From assembly GCA_964016885.1 (NCBI GenBank), contig OZ024743.1:10478001-10542000 (forward strand): a stretch of 64,000 nucleotides of DNA, read 5' to 3'. Shown piece by piece: positions 12,294-61,642 of the stretch; position 1 is the stretch's first letter; the number at the start of each line of letters is the position of its first letter. Both the position numbers and the translations under genes were made by a program. Under the pieces are notes generated by a model. The model was given only the letters and a program-made list of their open reading frames with translations, made no database searches and was not told where the DNA came from. The DNA comes from Eledone cirrhosa (lineage: Eukaryota).

Positions 12294-12693
12294 TTACCCA
12301 ATTACACCTCTCAAAGACAATGACACACGACCGTGACTTCTGGCGTCATGCAGTAATACAGAGTACCCGACCTCCCATGGGTACAAGCTGAAGCATATAG
12401 ACAATATGCCCCCACACCCCCCACCGCAAGGTCGTCGTGGAGGTGCCACGGAAAAAAGCACCCAGCCCACACTGTAAAGTGGACGTGTAGGCGCCACGGA
12501 AAAAGTACCCAGCACTCACTGTAAATGAGGTTGGTGTTAGGAAGGGCATCCAGCTGTAGAAACCAAGCCAAATCAGTTCCTGTATGAGCAAGGCATGGTC
12601 AGCCGACCAGACACTGCCCACAACAGGACAACCCGTCTAACCCATGCTAGCGTGGAAGAACGGACGTAAAACAGTGATGATGATGATGATGAT
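12294..12693 (+). mobile_element. RTE family B 3' fragment
   Basis: Matches 27443-27842, has a (GAT)n tail and TA flanks. Confidence 0.92.
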
Positions 12694-12728
12694 ATAAATA
12701 AATATATATATATATATATATATACATA

Positions 12729-12878
12729 CATCATCATCATCATCATCGTTTAACGTCCATCTTCCACGCTTGCATGGGTTTGGACGAGAGTTTTCCCACT
12801 TGAAGCAAGAGTGGTTGTCTTGCTCGCATAGGATTGTCTGGCGGGTTTTCTATGGCTGGATGCCCTTCCTAACACCAA
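12729..12878 (-). mobile_element. RTE family A, 150-bp 3' tip
   Basis: Matches the last 150 nt of the A 3' UTR. TA flanks. Confidence 0.9.
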
Positions 12879-12930
<52 letters not shown>

Positions 12931-12933
<3 letters not shown>

Positions 12934-22164: not shown

Positions 22165-22496
22165 GGAGGCACATTGCTTAGTGGTTAGAGCATTGGCCTT
22201 GCAATCGAAAGGTTGTGAGTTCAATTCTCAGACCGGGTGATGTGTTGTTTCCTTGAGCAAGACACTTTATTTCACATTGCTCCAGTTTACTCAGCTGTAG
22301 AAATGAGATGATAGGGACTGGGGTCCCCATCATTCCACTGCAAAGTGGTCGTGGAGGTGCCACGGCAAAAAAGCACCCAGCACTCACTGTAAATGAGGTT
22401 GGTGTTAGGAAGGGCATCCAGCTGTAGAAATCAAGCCAGAATCAGTTCCCGTGCCACCCTTGCAAGCAGGGAAAAGCGGACGTAAAATGATGATGA
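22165..22496 (+). mobile_element. tRNA-derived SINE with RTE-type body and tail
   Basis: A box (gcttagtggttag) and B box (gagttcaattc), then ccttgagcaagacact. The body matches the family B 3' UTR and the terminus matches the family C 3' end. Confidence 0.9.
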
Positions 22497-22796: not shown

Positions 22797-23184
22797 TCAT
22801 CATCATCATCATTTTACGTCCGCTTTTCCCTGCTTGCAAGGGTGGGACGGGTCTTATTTAGCACAGCATCTCTCCACTCGTCACGGTCCCTCGTCTTCTC
22901 CACCGTAAGCTTCAATGATCTGAGGTCTGTTCTCACCACCTCCGCCCATGTTTTTCGTGGTCTACCTCTAACACGTCTTCCTTCAACTGGCATTTCCTGG
23001 CACTTCTTCACCCATCGGTCATCCTCCATGCGCATCACATGTCCATACCACCTCAGTCTCCTCTCCCGTACACTACATTCTATCCCTCTCAGACACAGTT
23101 TCTCTCTCAACACATTTATGCTGGGTCGTTCACGCACATTTACACTGCACATCCAACGGAGCATGCTTGCCTCATTTCTCTCCA
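22797..23184 (-). mobile_element. RTE family C 3' fragment (ORF runs almost to the tail)
   Basis: [41 protein letters not shown], then (GAT)n. TA flanks. Confidence 0.92.
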
Positions 23185-34521: not shown

Positions 34522-34668
34522 ATCATCATCGTTTGACGTCTATCTTCCACGCTAGCATGGGTTTAGACGGGAATTGTCCCACTAGAGGCAAGATTGGTCG
34601 GGAGACCGTGTCTCGCTCGTATAGGACTGTCTGGCAGGTTTTCTATGGCTGGATGCCCTTCCTAACAC

Positions 34669-34671
<3 letters not shown>
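34522..34671 (-). mobile_element. RTE A-related 150-bp 3' tip
   Basis: Tail resembles 31060-31170. TA flanks. Confidence 0.88.
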
Positions 34672-34713
<42 letters not shown>

Positions 34714-34756
34714 ATGTATATATATATATATATATATATGTGTATGTATGTATGTA

Positions 34757-35624: not shown

Positions 35625-36099
35625 ACAGTAGGCATCTCTAACAAAATACACCCCCGTCCCACCACCCCCACCCCATCCACACCGCCCCTTTCAATGTAAA
35701 GTTATGTTGGTGCCACAAAATCCAGGCCGAAACAAATGGGATCGTGTAGGTGTCACGACAAAAAAACACACAGTCCACGCTGTAATGTGACCGTGTAGGC
35801 AACACGGTAAAAACCTCCCAGCCCCACACTGTAAATGTGGTTGGTGTTAGGAAGGGCATCCAGCTGTAGAAAACCCGCCAGACAGTCCATGCTGTAATGT
35901 GGCCGTGTAGGCAACACGGTAAAAACCTCCCAGCCCCACACTGTAAATGTGGTTGGTTTTAGGAAGGGCATCCAACTGTAGAAAACCCACCAGACAGTCC
36001 TATGCGAGCAAGACAACCACTCTTGCCTCAAGTGGGAAAACTCCCGTCCAAACCCATGCAAGCGTGGAACATGGACGTTAAACGATGATGATGATGATG
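35625..36099 (+). mobile_element. RTE family A 3' UTR-only copy with a 112-bp internal duplication
   Basis: 35771-35882 is repeated at 35883-35994. (GAT)n tail. Confidence 0.92.
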
Positions 36100-36102
36100 A
36101 AC

Positions 36103-39100
36103 ACTCTATCATTTTTTCCCCGAATCCAATCTTTGCCTTTCTACTCGATACTCTGTCGTATTTTCCAAAACAAATCTTGTATTTTTTGTTTTATGCTTGT
36201 TAAATTATGCCCAAAATACGGGGATCTTATTTAAACCTTACATTCTCGCTAACTACCCCAACCTTAATTCTGTCGTATTTTCAAAACAAAACTCCTTATA
36301 TATTTTTAAATATATTTTGTTATGCTGGCTAAATTATGCCCCAAATTTCGAGGACTGTATTTAAACTCTTAACCTCTGCTCCCTCCTATCTTCTCCTCCC
36401 CCTGCATCATGCTGGTTCGCGGCCACCCCCCCCCCCCCCTCTCTATCTCCATATATAAGATAAACCCTACAAGTACGAAAAAATCAGAACTGCCAATTCT
36501 ACTCCGGATGGCTGCTTTCATGGTATAATGTAACGTACAAATATTTCTTCATTCTTCTCACCATTTTAATTCCTTAGTCCATTCGTCATTCTCTATCATT
36601 TTTTTCCCCGAATCCAATATTTGCCTTTCTACTCGATACTCTGTCGTATTTTCCAAAACGAATCTTGTATTTTTTGTTTTATGCTTGTTAAATTATGCCC
36701 AAAATACGGGGATCTTATTTAAACCTTACATTCTCGCTAACTACCCAATATCCCTCCCACCCGCCCCCACGCACCACCATTATTACGTGGACCAATGATA
36801 AGTCAGAAGCCTATACTATCGCTTACCTGGTTGCCTTTCGATATGATGGATGGACTACGGAATTCTGGAGAGTTGAAAAGAAAAATCTGGACGCTCAGTG
36901 ACAATGCCAAAGATTAAGACAAATTCACCTCATGGACGAGAATGCAAGCACTCCTCCTCTTTGTTTCGGCCGCGGATGGCTAACATAACCCCATCTCCCC
37001 CATCCCCCCCCCCCCCCCCGCACCCCACCGCTCCCACCATCCAAACTCAATCCAAAACTTCAGAGTTGTTACCATGAATGTAGGCACCTTAAAGGGTCGC
37101 TCTAATGAGGTTGTAGAAATGCTTGAACGTAAGGAGGTCGATGTTTGTTGTATTCAAGAGACCAGGTGGAGGGGTGGGTCTGCTAGATTCATCGTGGGTA
37201 AAGAACGATGCTATAAGCTTTTCTGGGTGGGAAATGACAATGGGCTGGGTGGAGTAGGAATCATGGTAGCAGAAAAGTGGGCAGATAAGATAATAAGACG
37301 TAAATAGAGTGAACGACAGAATAATTAAAATAACACTTGTCCTCAATAGAACTACGGTGACAGTAATATCTGCGTACGCACCCCAATCCGGACTGCCCGG
37401 CACTATAAAAGACAGATTCTATGAGACACTGATGCTCACTACCTCCCAAATAACCGACAGTGACTATATAATTATTGCAGGCGACCTAAATGGTCACGTT
37501 GGACAACATTGTGACGGCTATGACGGAATCCATGGAGGCTATGGGTTTGGTATTAGAAATGATGAAGGCTCCAGAATCCTGGAATTCTGTGACGCAAATA
37601 ACCTAACTATCTGTAACACTAACTTAAAAAAACGAGACGATCACCTGATCACCTATAGATCGGGGGAACACACAACCCAGGTAGATTATATCCTTACCAG
37701 GAGACGTGACAGAGTGTCTGTTGTAAACACTAAATCCCTTCCCCATGAAGAATGCACGTCTCAACATAGACTCATAATCAGCGACCTCATAGTCAGGACG
37801 AGACGTATTCGACAACAGAAGAGGACTATCCTCAGGAGAAAAATATGGAAATTAAAGGACCCCACAGCCAGTCATAAATTTAAAAGCATATTACTTGATA
37901 CTTTTGATAGTAAGGAAGAGCAATTAGAGTCGTACAATATAGAGGAACAGTGGGAATTCCTGAAAGCTAACCTGCTGAAGGCGACAGATGAAACCTGTGG
38001 CTGGAGCAGGCCTATAGGCAGGAGGAGAGTAACTTGGTGGTGGAACAGTAAGGTGGAGAGGTCAATCAAGGCCAAAAAGCAGGCTTGGAAAGCATGGTGG
38101 GATGGGGGAAGTAGAGAAGACTATCAAGTGGCCAGGAGGGAAGCTAGGAGACAAGTGTACTTCGCAAGAAGGGAAGCAGAGGAAAGAAAGTTCAAGCATG
38201 TTCTACAACGCGAGGACCAAAAACGTGAGGTGTTCAGGATTGCTAGGCAATGTGTCAAGGAAAACAGTGATATTGTCGGGGAGAAGTGTGTCCTAAATGA
38301 TGATGGTGTACTTGCCATCACTGACGCTGATAAGAAGGTAGCTTGGAAGTGTCACTACGAAAGGCTACTAAATAAGGAGAATAATTGGGAGAAAGACAGT
38401 CTCCCCTACATCGACCCAATAGAGGGACCAGCAGTGCAAGTTGAAGGTAGTATAATAAGTAAGGCGATCAAAGACATGAAGACGGGCAAGGCGGCCGGGC
38501 TTTCAGAAATAGTTGCCGAAATGCTGAAAGCATCTGGCACGGTGGGACACACTATGGTCACCCGGATAGTAAACCAAGTCATACAGAATGGGGTCGTTCC
38601 GAAGGACTGGTGCAACAGCATCATCATTAACTGCTACAAGGGTAACGGTGATGCCCTAGATAGGGGAAACTATAGAGGCATTAAATTAATTGACCAGGTC
38701 ATGAAGGTCACAGAAAAAGTAATAGCGCAACTAATGAGAGAGCGAATTGATCTAGACGAAATGCAGTTCGGGTTTGTGTCAGGTAAAAGTACAACAGACG
38801 CTCTTTTTATTGTACGACAACTACAGGAGAAGTACCTAGCTAAAAGTGAACCCCTATACTTAGCTTTTGTTGACTTGGAGAAAGCCTTTGACAGAGTACC
38901 CCGCTCGATTATCTGGTGCGCCCTAAGAAAACTAGGCGTTGATGAATGGCTTGTGAGAGCTATACAAGCCATGTATAAAGAAACAGTCAGCAAGGTTAGA
39001 ATTAACAACTAATATAGTGAAGAGTTTAGCGTAAAAGTTGTTCATCAGGGCTCCGTCCTTAGCCCCCTACTATTTATTATTGCCCTTCAGGCTATAACAG

Positions 39101-40480
39101 AAGAGTTCAAGACCGGCTGCCCATGGGAACTCCTATATGCAGATGATCTAACGCTCATAGCTGAATCAATGGCTGAACTAGAGAAGAAATTCCAAACATG
39201 GAAGCATGGCCTAGAATCAAAAGGCCTTAAAGTTAACTTGTCTAAGACTAAAGTTCTAGTTTGTAGGAAGGAAAATAGGGCACCGGTCCCATCTGGGAAA
39301 TGGCCATGCTCAGTGTGTAGGAAAGGAGTAGGTAGAAACTCCATTTTGTGTCCCAAATGCAAAGTATGGGTACATAAAAGATGTAGTGGGATCACAGGTA
39401 AACTATCTAAGAATATAGATTTTATATGTGGTCGGTGCTCTGGTGCAATAAGTAGCAGCAAGTGCCCACTGAATACTAACTCATTCCAATGCACAGATGG
39501 TTCTATAGAAATAGTGGACAGCTTCCGTTACCTGGGTGATAAAGTCAGCAGTGAGGGAGGGTGCTCTGAAAGTACAGTAGCTAGGGTCAGAACGGGATGG
39601 AAAAAGTTCAGAGAGCTTATACCACTATTGGCCACTAAAGGGTTCTCTCTAAAAATGAAAGGCAGGCTGTATGATGCCTGCATACGAACAGCAATGTTAC
39701 ATGGCAGTGAGACCTGGGCATTGTGTGCAGAGGATATACGCAGACTGGAGAGAAACGAAGCTTGCATGCTCCGCTGGATGTGTAATAGTAACATACGTGA
39801 ACGGCAAAGCATAAACGTACTAAGGGAGAAATTAGAAATAAGAGGGATCAGATGTTGTTTACTCGAGAGAAGGCTATGTTGGTATAGTCACGTGATGCGC
39901 ATGAAAGACGACAGCTGTATAAAAAAGTGCAGGGCAATAAAAATAGACGGTAGCCACAGAGTAGGCAGACCCAGAAAAACCTGGGACAACTTGATAAATT
40001 CCGACCTCATACACACCTCTCCAAGACAATGTCACTGGACCGAGAGCTTTGGCGCTACACAGTAATAGAGAAGACCCGCCTTACCTAAGTACAAAGTGAA
40101 ACCTACTACAGTCAGTAGGCACCTCTAACAAAATACACCCCCGTCCCACCACCCCCACCCCATCCACACCACCCCTTCAATGTAAAGTTATGTTGGTGCC
40201 ACAACATCCAGCCCGAAACAAATGAGGTCGTGTAGGTGTCACGACAAAAAAACACACAGTCCACGCTGTAATGTGGCCGTGTAGGCAACACGGTAAAAAC
40301 CTCCAAGTTCCACACTGTAAATGTGGTTGGTGTTAGGAAGGGCATCCAGCCATAGAAAACCCGCCAGACAGTCCTATGCGAGCAAGACAACTACTCTTGC
40401 CTCAAGTGGGAAAACCCGCGTCCAAACCCATGCAAGCGTGGAATATGGACGTTAAACGATGATGATGATGATGATGATGA
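36103..40480 (+). mobile_element. RTE family A, full-length copy with frameshifts and stops
   Basis: 5' UTR with a ~158-bp direct repeat (36103-36260 / 36591-36748). ORF pieces 37074-37307, 37309-39012 and 39169-40065. 3' UTR and tail. Confidence 0.95.
36904..40088 (+). pseudogene. Disrupted APE-RT(PHD) polyprotein
   Basis: Frameshift near 37295, TAA at 39010, small deletions near 39040 and 40010. Confidence 0.9.
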
Positions 40481-45129: not shown

Positions 45130-45540
45130 TCATCATCATCATCATTTTACGTCCGCTTTTCCCTGCTTGCAAGGGTGGGACGGGTGCTATTCAGCACAGC
45201 ATCTCTCCACTTGTCACAGTCCTTCACCATCTCCTCCGTGAGTTTCATCGATCTAAGGTCTGCTCTCACCACCTCCGCCCATCTTTTTCATGGTCTACCT
45301 CTACTGCGTCTTCCTTCTACTGGGATTTCTTGGCACTTCTTTACCCAGCGGTCATCCTCCATGCACATCACATGTCCATACCATCTCAATCTTCTCTCCT
45401 GTACACCACAACTTATACCCAGTTTCTTTCTCAACTTCAACTCATCTACGCTTGGTCGTTCACGCACATTCACATTGCACATCCAACGGAGCATGCTTGT
45501 TTCATTTCTCTCCTGCCGTCGCATATCCTCTGCAGTTGCA
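45130..45540 (-). mobile_element. RTE family C 3' fragment
   Basis: Similar to 22797-23184, with the same terminus. Confidence 0.92.
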
Positions 45541-45597
45541 ATTATGCAGACAAGCCTCATTAAAAAATTTATATATATATATATATATATATAAATT

Positions 45598-46688
45598 TTA
45601 ACCTAATTTAATCTAATTCATTCAATCTGAAAATATTGAAGAGATAAGACACTTTCCCATTCTTCTCTGCTAAAATGTATCACTAGAGCTGATTCCAATT
45701 TTCCCAGCCAGCCATCCATCTAATCTACGAAGGTATTTTAGCCTACATATTGTCGTTAATATTATGATGTTCCCTGCTGTATTAGCGTTAAATTTTCCCT
45801 GCTGTATTAGCGATAAATTTTCGAGGGTTTCTCTTAGTAGTTTTTTTCATGACGTTATTATTGTTAATTTTACTGATGTAGTATTAACTTGGATATTTAC
45901 CATGCGACCCTCAGTTCCTACCCCCCCCCTCTCTATGCACTTCTTTAAGGCTTACTACCCTGTCTTTAACCTAATTCATTCAATCTGAAAATATTGAAGA
46001 GATAAGACACTTTCCCATTCTTCTCTGCTAAAATGTATCACTAGAGCTGATTCCAATTTTCCCAGCCAGCCATCCATCTAATCTACGAAGGTATTTTAGC
46101 CTACATATTGTCGTTAATATTATGATGTTCCCTGCTGTATTAGCGTTAAATTTTCCCTGCTGTATTAGCGATAAATTTTCGAGGGTTTCTCTTAGTAGTT
46201 TTTTTCATGACGTTATTATTGTTAATTTTACTGATGTAGTATTAACTTATTAACTTGGATATTTACCATGCGGTATTCTAATCCTATTGTATCTCTCTCA
46301 GTTATTTACCATGCGACCCTCAGTTCCTACCCCCCCCCTCTCTATGCACTTCTTTAAGGCTTACTACCCTGTCTTTAACCTAATTCATTCAATCTGAAAA
46401 TATTGAAGAGATAAGACACTTTCCCATTCTTCTCTGCTAAAATGTATCACTAGAGCTGATTCCAATTTTCCCAGCCAGCCATCCATCTAATCTACGAAGG
46501 TATTTTAGCCTACATATTGTCGTTAATATTATGATGTTCCCTGCTGTATTAGCGTTAAATTTTCCCTGCTGTATTAGCGATAAATTTTCGAGGGTTTCTC
46601 TTAGTAGTTTTTTCATGACGTTATTATTGTTAATTTTACTGATGTAGTATTAACTTGGATATTTACCATGCGACCCTCAGTTCCTACC
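45598..46688 (+). repeat. Three tandem near-identical monomers (periods ~358 and ~409 bp) at the family B 5' end
   Basis: ctaattcattcaatctgaaaatattg begins at 45613, 45971 and 46380. Confidence 0.93.
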
Positions 46689-46931
46689 TCACAATTTCCC
46701 TCCCCCCCACCCCCACACACCACCATAGTCTATTCGACCAATCAAACCTAGCATGCCATTTCCACTGCTGCTGCTGCTACTACCTGCCTAACTAACTCTC
46801 TCCTCCTCTGGCGCATCCCAACACACCCTGCCATTACCCCACCACCACTGTCCTTCTAGCCCTCAATTTTCCCACCGTTATGGATGGATGAGCTGGGAAT
46901 ACACGAGCAACTCTGAATCAATAGATGAAAT

Positions 46932-51168: not shown

Positions 51169-51510
51169 AATTGTTCTGCATCCCCTTGCATTGAACCACA
51201 CACAAAGTTACTAAGACAAAACCTATATATTTGCTGGCATAGGTATGCATCTGTATATATATGTTGGTAGATATACTAATTCTTTATATATATATATATA
51301 TATATGATATGATATACATACACATTTCATAAAATTGTAGGAATCTCAAAAACAGAAATAACTGTAAAACAGCCAGCTGCTATGATGATCATAGGAAAGA
51401 ATTGGGTTAAACAAAACATCTTAATTAATGGAAGAGTTCTCAGAGTAATACTAATAAAACTTTGTTCATTTGCAGCCCTGATTTTGTGTTGTCATTTCTT
51501 CAACTATATA

Positions 51511-51873
51511 TCATCATCATCATCATCATACGTCCGCTTTTCCCTGCTTGCAAGGGTGGGACAGGAACTGATTCTGGCTTGATTTCTACAGCTGGATGCC
51601 CTTCCTAACACCAACCTCATTTACAGTGAGTGCTGGGTGCTTTTGTCCCATGGCCCCTACACGTGCACTTTACAGTGTGGGCTGGGTGCTTTTTTGCCAT
51701 GGCACCTCCATGACCACTTTGCAGTGGAATGATAGGGAACCCAGTCCTATCATCTCATTTCTACAGCTGAATAAACTGGAGCAATGTGAAATAAAGTGTC
51801 ATCACCCAGTCTGAGAATTGAACTCACAACCTTTTGAATGCAAGGCCAATGCTCTAACCACTAAGCCATATGT
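51511..51873 (-). mobile_element. tRNA-derived SINE of the 22165 family, carrying two copies of the 48-nt module
   Basis: Same head and tail as 22165-22496. Confidence 0.9.
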
Positions 51874-51894
51874 ATCTTATATATATATATGTAT

Positions 51895-52610
51895 CTTCAT
51901 CAACATCATCTTTGTTTAACGTCCATTTTCCATGCTAGCATGGGTTAGAGGGGTTGTCCCATTAAAGGCAAGTTAGGTCAGGTTACCGTGTCTTGCTTAT
52001 ATAGAGCTGTTTCTGGCTAGCTTTCTATGGCTGGATGCCCTTCCTAATGCCAATCACATTTACAGTGTGTGGTGGTTGCTTTTTGTCATGACACCTACAT
52101 GACTACCATAGAGTATGAGCTGGGTACTTTTTGTTATGACACCTACATTACCACTTTACAGTGTGGGCTGGGTGCTTCTTGTTATGACACCTACATTACC
52201 ACTTTACAGTGTGGGCTGGGTACTTTTTGTTATGACACCTACATTACCACTTTACAGTGTGGGCTGGGTACTTTTTGTTATGACACCTACATTACCACTT
52301 TACAGTGTGGGCTGGGTACTTTTTGTTATGACACCTACATTACCACTTTACAGTGTGGGCTGGGTGCTTCTTGTTGTGACATACACACGACAACTTTACA
52401 GTGTGGCCTGGATGATTTTCTGTTGTGATACCAACATAACTTTACATTGTAAGGGTGGTATAAACAGAAGTGGGTGGGTGTAGGGGTGTGGTGGTGTATG
52501 CAAGGAAATAGAGTGGCTAAGGGTTGTCTATTAGATGTATGTTTAAGTCTATATGCATGGGAAGGCGTGTCTTCTGTACTACTACATAACACGAAAGATC
52601 TCAATCCTGT
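51895..52610 (-). mobile_element. Older RTE 3' end with an expanded module array in its 3' UTR
   Basis: RTE terminus at 51900-51950, GGAAGGGCATCC motif near 52040, and ORF-end-like sequence at 52545-52605. Confidence 0.8.
52078..52450. repeat. About 7.5 x 48-bp tandem repeat
   Basis: Unit ttttgttatgacacctacattaccactttacagtgtgggctgggtact. Confidence 0.93.
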
Positions 52611-52897
52611 AAATCCTGTATATATATATATACATACAGATATACATACATATATGTGTGTGTTCACATGTTTGCATGTGTGTGTCTTGAGTGTATTTGT
52701 GCATGTATCAAAGAGAATTTGATGCTAAGGTATTGCATTTCAGAATTATATGATTGGGAGTTCACCTTATACTAGAGTGATTGTTATTGTACATCTAAGA
52801 AAAGAAAAATGAAGAATTCTATTTTCCAAGATAGGAAGATGCATGATAGAAAAAGAAAGTGTACATGTGTGTGTGCTTCCGTGTATATATATATATA

Positions 52898-57898: not shown

Positions 57899-58852
57899 TC
57901 ATCATCATCATCATCGTTTAACGTCCATCTTCCACGCTAGCATGGGTTTGGACGGGAATTTTCCCACTTGCGGCAAGATTGGTTGTCTTGCTCGTATAGG
58001 ACTGTCTGGCGGGTTTTCTACGGCTGGATGCCCTTCCTAACACCAACCACGTTTACAGTGTGGACTGGGAGGTTTTTACTGTGTTACCTACACGGCCACA
58101 TTACAGCGTGGACTGTGTTTTTTTGTCATGACACCTACACGCCCTCATTTGTTTCGGACTGGATGCTGTGGTACCAACATAACTTTATTTTGGAAGGGCT
58201 AGTGTGGATCGGGTGGGGGTAGTGGGGCCGGGGTGTATTTTTGTTAGAGGTGCCTACTGACTGTAGTAGGTTTCACTTTGTACTTAGGCAAGGCGGGTCT
58301 TCTGTATTACTGTGTAGCGCCAAAGATCTCGGTCCAGTGACATTGTCTTGGAGAGGTGTAAGTGTGTGAGGTCGGAGTTTAACAAGTCGTCCCAGATTTT
58401 TCTGGGTCTGCCTACTCCGTGGCTACCGTCTATTTTTATCGCCCTACACTTTGTTATACAGTTGTCGTCTTTCATGCGCATCACGTGACCATACCAACAT
58501 AGTCTTCTCTCGAGTAAACAGCATCTGATCCCTCTTATTCCTAATTTCTCCCTTAGTTCGTTTATGCTTTGCCGTTCACGTATATTACTATTACACATCC
58601 AGCGGAGCATGCAAGCTTCGTTCCTCTCTAGTCTGCGTATATCCTCTGCACACAATGCCCAGGTCTCACTGCCATGCAACATTGCTGTTCGTATGCAGGC
58701 ATCATACAGCCTGCCTTTCATTTTTAGTGAGAACCCTTTAGCAACCAATAGTGGTATAAGCTCTCTGAACTTTTTCCATCCCGTTCTGACTCTAGCTACT
58801 GTACTTTCGGAGCACCCTCCACCACTGCTGATTTTGTCACCCAGGTAACGGA
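57899..58852 (-). mobile_element. RTE family A 3' fragment
   Basis: ORF 58284-58952 from FRYLG onward, A-type 3' UTR and (GAT)n tail. Confidence 0.93.
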
Positions 58853-61309: not shown

Positions 61310-61642
61310 GGAGCCACATGGCTTAGTGGTTAGAGCATTGACCTTGCAATCAAAAGGTTGTGAGTTCAATTCTCAGACCGGGTGATGTGTTGTTTCCTTG
61401 AGCAAGATACTTTATTTCACATTGCTCCAGTTTACTCAGCTGTAGAAATGAGATGATAGGGACTGGGGTCTCTATCATTCCACTGCAAAGTGATCGTGGA
61501 GGTGCCATGGCAAAAAAGCACCCATCACTCACTGTAAATGAGGTTGGTGTTAGGAAGGGCATCCAGCTGTAGAAATCAAGCCAGAATCAGTTCCTGTCCC
61601 ACCCCCGCAAGCAGGGAAAAGCGGACATAAAATGATGATGAT
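61310..61642 (+). mobile_element. tRNA-derived SINE of the 22165 family
   Basis: Colinear with 22165-22496. Confidence 0.92.

What the first reader, a model, noticed from the sequence alone, without database searches (positions are those of the whole stretch)
12729..12878. Two independent RTE tips are 5'-truncated at exactly the same nucleotide, at the base of the GGAAGGGCATCC stem
Seen: 12729-12878 and 34522-34671 have different tail sequences, so they belong to different subfamilies. Both begin in the sense direction with (TA)n-TTGGTGTTAGGAAGGGCATCCAGCCATAGAAAACC, whereas longer copies have GTGG in front. Inference: a defined RNA 5' end (cleavage or an exonuclease halt) or a strong RT stop at the predicted structure could generate a discrete ~150-nt retroposon class. 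Only two cases are available.
Basis: partly seen in the sequence, partly recalled or inferred. Interest (0 to 1): 0.7.

Follow-up and report, generated by a model that had tools for sequence, protein, structure and literature searches.

The report
Two retrotransposon stubs, same cut point
Two short, independently inserted stubs of a common jumping gene begin at exactly the same base; this is most likely an ordinary coincidence among many truncated copies, although the spot lies right behind a small predicted RNA hairpin that may make the copying enzyme stop there more often.

Summary
Both copies are 3'-UTR-only stubs of an RTE-type LINE, both join (TA)n bluntly at TATAT|TTGGTGTTAGG, their flanks are unrelated, and each is closer to a different long copy than to the other. 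The junction is not at the base of the GGAAGGGCATCC stem: it lies 5 bp inside its 5' arm, on the wrong side for an RT stop, and that stem shows no two-sided covariation. It does lie at the 3' foot of a small upstream hairpin, CCACA-CTGTAAA-TGTGG, which has one A-U/U-A swap; this was found after the fact. An exact tie among 13-15 truncated copies arises by chance in 2-19% of simulations. Contig depth shows no step at the site (ratio 0.98-1.03; 1.22 expected from the window), which argues against a large 150-nt class. Odds: chance 0.52, mild RT-stop hot spot 0.36, processed RNA class 0.07. The scan had not noted this elsewhere in five look-ups.

The parts
12729..12878 (-). Stub 1: last 131 nt of an RTE-type LINE 3' UTR (12748-12878) plus a GAT-repeat tail (12729-12747); nearest long copy is the one with the motif at 40336 (95.5%)
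34522..34671 (-). Stub 2: last 141 nt of a related 3' UTR with a 10-nt insert (34531-34671) plus (GAT)3; nearest long copies are those at 58026 (93.3%, without the insert) and 31064 (89.7%, with it)
12879..12931 (.). (TA)n array joined to the 5' end of stub 1, blunt junction without microhomology
34672..34739 (.). (TA)n array joined to the 5' end of stub 2, same blunt junction
12294..12728 (+). A second, family-B truncated copy and the (AT)n array that it shares tail-to-tail with stub 1
36752..40480 (+). Near full-length family-A LINE used as reference; position 40327 corresponds to the first base of both stubs
40310..40326 (+). Predicted upstream hairpin CCACA-CTGTAAA-TGTGG (-3.9 kcal/mol) whose last paired base is the base just before the junction; absent from both stubs
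40322..40354 (+). Predicted GGAAGGGCATCC stem (alternative fold of the same GTGGTTGGTGTT strand); the junction falls 5 bp inside its 5' arm

Best explanation
Both stretches are independent 5'-truncated copies of an RTE-type LINE inserted in (TA)n microsatellites, likely made by ordinary target-primed reverse transcription that ended early, and their shared start base is most likely a chance tie among many short copies. Shown: they are 3'-UTR ends with a GAT tail, joined to (TA)n, with unrelated flanks and different nearest relatives. Inferred: the LINE's own endonuclease/RT primed on the GAT tail, copied 131-141 nt and was joined bluntly to the upstream (TA)n end. A slight preference for starts at A/T and for short lengths narrows the usable positions and makes ties commoner.
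For: Long copies encode endonuclease + RT in one frame. (TA)n or AT-rich sequence abuts the 5' junction of most truncated copies at scattered positions: 9, 9, 224, 246, 398, 425, 816, 935, 1198, 2112, 2226 and 3026 nt before the motif. Exact-tie probability 0.02-0.08 for 12 copies and 0.02-0.19 for 13-15 copies (kernel model fitted to the window 0.04-0.085); the scan has notes on 467 windows of this genome, so some ties are expected, if other windows are similarly dense. 9 of 11 distinct junctions start with A or T (P about 0.05-0.06). No depth step in run X1 contigs: mean of 4 family-A positions downstream over 2 upstream = 0.98, over 5 upstream = 1.03, against 1.22 if the window's 2 of 11 were typical. 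No loose end with a TA consensus at 40327 among the 24 rows shown. Only 1 of the 10 other junction sites lies at a predicted hairpin foot.
Against: Both junctions are identical to the base and in TA phase, without microhomology. The base before the junction is the predicted 3' foot of a conserved hairpin (pair probability 0.90-0.93 in 3 of 4 family-A copies), a state met by 1-3% of random positions at P>0.85 and 9-10% at P>0.5. The depth test cannot see a class below about 10% of copies, the tool warns that summed depth is no copy number, and 1589 loose-end rows were hidden.
Confidence: 0.52

Rival explanations
1. A real but modest truncation hot spot: the RT copies through the GGAAGGGCATCC region, unwinds the lower CCAG/TTGG helix and tends to stall at the 3' foot of the upstream hairpin CCACA-CTGTAAA-TGTGG, possibly because a protein sits on its invariant loop; the cDNA is then joined bluntly to (TA)n.
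For: The geometry fits an RT stop exactly. The hairpin has an A-U/U-A swap between family A (7 rows) and family B/SINE (5 rows) and an invariant CTGTAAA loop in 11 of 13 rows. Precedent: Alu 5' truncations cluster at predicted hairpins directly 3' of SRP9/14 sites (PMC4666360, passages). One other junction (copy 2246) also follows a strongly paired base (0.98).
Against: The hairpin was found after the fact and is weak (-3.9 to -4.1 kcal/mol; -1.5 to -1.6 in the two GTGA copies, which share stub 2's insert). About 24 of 391 3'-UTR positions are such onsets. The covariation is one event inherited by five rows, and related rows can beat the shuffles without structure (tool caveat). 9 of the 10 other junction sites are not at a hairpin foot. 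No depth step.
Confidence: 0.36
2. A defined short RNA, made by cleavage, by a 5'-3' exonuclease halting at a protein-protected module, or by an internal start, is retroposed whole and forms a discrete ~135-145-nt class.
For: Exact tie with blunt junctions. The motif is conserved far beyond this genome: 19 metagenome stretches, one of them about 220 nt upstream of an endonuclease N-terminus like this LINE's (L009, tblastn E 6e-13), and it is kept in the window's SINE tails, so it probably binds something.
Against: No Rfam match at gathering score in the window or at a meaningful E-value in the 3' UTR. The start is inside the predicted stem in the CCAT-type long copy, the stem has no two-sided covariation in 16 rows, and 5 of 8 copies fold this strand upstream instead, with a sixth split. 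No depth step.
Confidence: 0.07
3. The two stubs share one origin: segmental duplication, a short master element, or gene conversion that copied one junction onto another tail.
For: The first 35 nt are identical, including the CCAT variant.
Against: Flanks give only low-complexity local matches (scores 22 and 30). Each stub is closer to long copies than to the other (89.6%). CCAT also occurs in the long copies at 40336, 31064 and 52033, so no transfer is needed.
Confidence: 0.04

Closest known systems
5'-truncated copies of non-LTR retrotransposons (RTE clade), established knowledge
   Same: Intact 3' end with a short tandem-repeat tail, loss of everything 5', parent with one endonuclease + RT frame.
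   Different: Nothing shown to differ; only the exact tie of two junctions is unusual.
Non-random Alu 5' truncation (PMC4666360, passages read)
   Same: Truncation points proposed to coincide with RNA hairpins and to lie directly 3' of protein-binding sites, as the rival reading here would need.
   Different: Alu clusters are broad regions backed by many insertions and are copied by L1 ORF2p; here there are two cases at one nucleotide in an RTE 3' UTR.
Bipartite non-autonomous RTE elements and RTE-derived SINE bodies (PMC5786205, parts 2-4 of 5 read and supplement searched)
   Same: Short RTE-mobilised elements with a defined 5' end exist, and RTE 5'-UTR modules recur in SINEs; the motif here also occurs 5' of an endonuclease frame in L009.
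   Different: The stubs have no separate 5' part and no common master; the motif was not found in that paper's supplement text, and the SepiaSINE sequence shown there lacks it, so it is not the Ceph-domain.

Membership tests
RTE-clade LINE (parent element) | Single frame with AP endonuclease and reverse transcriptase | tested here: met
   Pfam Exo_endo_phos(_2) + RVT_1 (+ PHD) in the long copies
RTE-clade LINE (parent element) | 3' end of short tandem repeats rather than poly(A) | tested here: met
   (ATG/GAT)n tails
RTE-clade LINE (parent element) | RT phylogeny places it in the RTE clade | not tested
5'-truncated TPRT copy | Collinear with the 3' end of long copies, 5' part missing | tested here: met
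5'-truncated TPRT copy | Target-site duplication | tested here: inconclusive
   Both ends lie in TA-rich simple repeats
Discrete non-autonomous family (SINE or bipartite RTE) | Copies descend from a shared master | tested here: not met
   Each stub is closer to long copies than to the other
Discrete non-autonomous family (SINE or bipartite RTE) | Own 5' head or 5'-UTR part | tested here: not met
   Stubs start inside the 3' UTR, directly after (TA)n
Discrete non-autonomous family (SINE or bipartite RTE) | Many copies with the same 5' end genome-wide | tested here: inconclusive
Self-cleaving ribozyme product | Known ribozyme fold at the 5' end | tested here: not met
   Rfam: 0 at gathering score, two chance hits on the GAT tail at E 1.6 and 3.2; undescribed folds are not covered
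Self-cleaving ribozyme product | Cleavage or a defined RNA 5' end at this base | not testable with these tools
   Needs in vitro cleavage or RNA end mapping

The most novel reading that the evidence does not exclude
The conserved 3'-UTR module defines an RNA 5' end at a single nucleotide across subfamilies (processing, or a protected boundary), so that headless ~135-145-nt RNAs are retroposed as a recurring class of minimal retroposons made afresh from each LINE subfamily.
Probability: 0.08. Interest if true: 0.6.

Novelty: already known. Interest (0 to 1): 0.24.

Why it matters
If the tie is chance, nothing new follows. If a genome-wide count showed a single-base spike at the foot of the CTGTAAA hairpin, it would give a nucleotide-resolution handle on why non-LTR copies are 5'-truncated, a question for which Alu offers only broad clusters, and it would mark a candidate protein-binding hairpin shared by two LINE families and a SINE. 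A processed RNA class would be a new route to minimal retroposons. The test is cheap once the assembly is at hand.

Tried and rejected
No whole genome is held, so the truncation histogram could not be drawn. Reads laid on stub 2 gave no depth over the junction because the tool skips simple repeats; the junction count stays open. loose ends: the listed ones before the motif (40309-40325) are subfamily divergence points, not TA junctions; if rows are the top by count, fewer than 3405 of about 38,000 X21 reads clip at 40327, a bound too weak to use; the raw runs are RAD-seq, so depth depends on cut sites. No RNA holder listed, which is no evidence either way. Pattern scans: viral contigs 0, prokaryote genome contigs 0, metagenome contigs 19 stretches, all with other flanking families and none with a (TA)n junction. 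My recalled idea that the motif is the Ceph-domain was rejected; its likeness to the V-SINE domain is recalled and untested. The motif is absent from the three 5' regions of near full-length copies searched with up to 4 mismatches. ARAGORN found no tRNA gene. cDNA fold-back is too weak to matter (-0.4 to -4.2 kcal/mol). Microhomology does not explain the junction (none). Paper searches listed no report of a truncation hot spot in an RTE 3' UTR; the library lacks most subscription papers, and Repbase was not searchable. Scan look-ups showed no note on this junction.

Full report
Observation. Both stretches are as described. On the minus strand each reads (TA)n-T followed by TTGGTGTTAGGAAGGGCATCCAGCCATAGAAAACC, with the first element base at 12878 and 34671. 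The motif GGAAGGGCATCC has 21 exact hits in the window. Of the 18 longer copies with the exact motif, 9 have GTGG before the site, 7 GAGG and 2 GTGA. The equal length of 150 nt is incidental: 131 + 19 nt against 141 + 9 nt of GAT repeats.

What they are. The window is dense in two related LINE families (A and B, about 74% alike) whose long copies encode endonuclease, RT and a PHD-like finger in one frame and end in (ATG)n. The motif lies about 270 nt after the stop codon of family A (frame ends at 40065, motif at 40336), so the stubs are pure 3' UTR. Three SINE-like copies (22408, 51594, 61553) carry the same module but a shorter tail; the stubs have the LINE tail. Other scan notes call this genome an octopus; I did not test that.

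Independence. The stubs are 89.6% alike with a 10-nt indel. Stub 1 is closest to the long copy at 40336 (95.5%), stub 2 to 58026 (93.3%) and to 31064 (89.7%, which shares its insert). The flanks beyond the TA arrays give only low-complexity matches. So these are two insertion events.

Is the tie more than chance? The 12 truncated copies with a mapped junction start 9, 9, 224, 246, 398, 425, 816, 935, 1198, 2112, 2226 and 3026 nt before the motif; a thirteenth (52033) was added. Three SINEs, three near full-length copies and several diverged or short ends were left out. Simulated exact ties occur with probability 0.02-0.08 for 12 copies and 0.02-0.19 for 13-15 copies, depending on the length model and on whether only 60% of positions are usable. 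A tie at one position named in advance would be rare (0.0002), but the position was named after the tie was seen. The scan holds notes on 467 windows of this genome.

The structure. In the long copy nearest to stub 1 the strand GTGGTTGGTGTT pairs with GGCATCCAGCCATA, and the helix runs 5 bp upstream of the junction. So the junction is inside the stem, and an RT would meet this stem from the other side. Across 16 rows the stem keeps 92.8% of cells paired but has no two-sided change and does not beat the shuffles. In full context 5 of 8 copies pair this strand with upstream sequence instead, and one more is split. That upstream fold has an upper helix CACA/TGTG in family A and CTCA/TGAG in family B and the SINE, one compensatory swap around a CTGTAAA loop. 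When only RNA not yet copied is folded, the base just before the junction is the last paired base of this hairpin, with probability 0.90-0.93 in 3 of 4 family-A copies. Against it: the hairpin is weak (-4 kcal/mol, and -1.5 in the GTGA copies related to stub 2), about 24 of 391 UTR positions are such onsets, and only 1 of 10 other junction sites shows the same.

Outside evidence. No genome is held. Reads and contigs laid on the family-A 3' end show the listed loose ends before the motif at subfamily divergence points and none with a TA consensus at 40327, but only 24 rows were shown and 1589 hidden. In the contigs of run X1, summed depth at family-A positions downstream of the site equals that upstream (ratio 0.98-1.03), whereas 2 stubs among 11 family-A tails would give 1.22. 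The tool warns that this depth is no copy number, and the spread between positions is about 10%, so this excludes only a large class. The motif occurs in 19 metagenome stretches with other flanking families, in one case upstream of a related endonuclease start (L009), so it is an old mobile module. Rfam finds no ribozyme.

Mechanism. Shown: independent 3'-UTR stubs with GAT tails, blunt (TA)n junctions at the same base. Inferred: target-primed reverse transcription into (TA)n that ended after 131-141 nt. Most likely (0.52) the tie is chance; a mild RT-stop hot spot at the upstream hairpin is a close second (0.36); a processed RNA class is unlikely (0.07). These odds are my judgement from the numbers above.

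Literature. PMC4666360 (passages) reports non-random Alu 5' truncation near hairpins and SRP9/14 sites. PMC5786205 (parts 2-4 of 5 and supplement searches) describes bipartite RTE elements and RTE 5'-UTR modules in SINEs; the motif was not found in its supplement text, figures were not visible. PMC4758252 (passages) names the octopus CORE-SINE OR2. PMC5322556 (passages) concerns 3' truncation hot spots and does not apply. Other papers were seen only as listings. Nine searches listed no report of such a hot spot in RTE elements.

Verdict. A real observation with an ordinary default explanation and one testable lead, the upstream hairpin. Interest 0.24.

Noticed in passing
window 40300-40354 and homologues: The strand GTGGTTGGTGTT can pair either upstream (CCCAG...CACA) or downstream (GGCATCCAGC), two mutually exclusive predicted hairpins; the upstream fold and a second hairpin CGTG-TAGG..-CACG each show one compensatory change. 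Possible two-state 3'-UTR module shared by both LINE families and the SINE.
   Followed up: partly
window 45600-46700: About three tandem units of roughly 370 nt (97-99% alike) lie directly upstream of the near full-length family-B LINE at 46880, like a 5' monomer array.
   Followed up: no
window 51893-52620: A truncated LINE copy whose 3' UTR carries about 8 tandem copies of the 48-nt unit that precedes the motif.
   Followed up: partly
window 35770-36005: One family-A copy has an internal tandem duplication of 112 nt that doubles the GGAAGGGCATCC module.
   Followed up: no
window 22165-22490, 51510-51880, 61310-61635 (approximate starts): SINE-like elements with a tRNA-like head and a CORE-like middle (recalled likeness, not tested) that share the LINE module and terminal stem-loop but lack 49 nt of the tail.
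   Followed up: partly
L009 417-863: In another organism's contig the same motif lies about 220 nt upstream of an endonuclease start 42% identical to this LINE's, so the module can sit in a 5' UTR there and in the 3' UTR here.
   Followed up: partly
window 22800-23184 and 45130-45560: A third, more diverged LINE family with a short 3' UTR that lacks the motif but keeps the terminal stem-loop.
   Followed up: no
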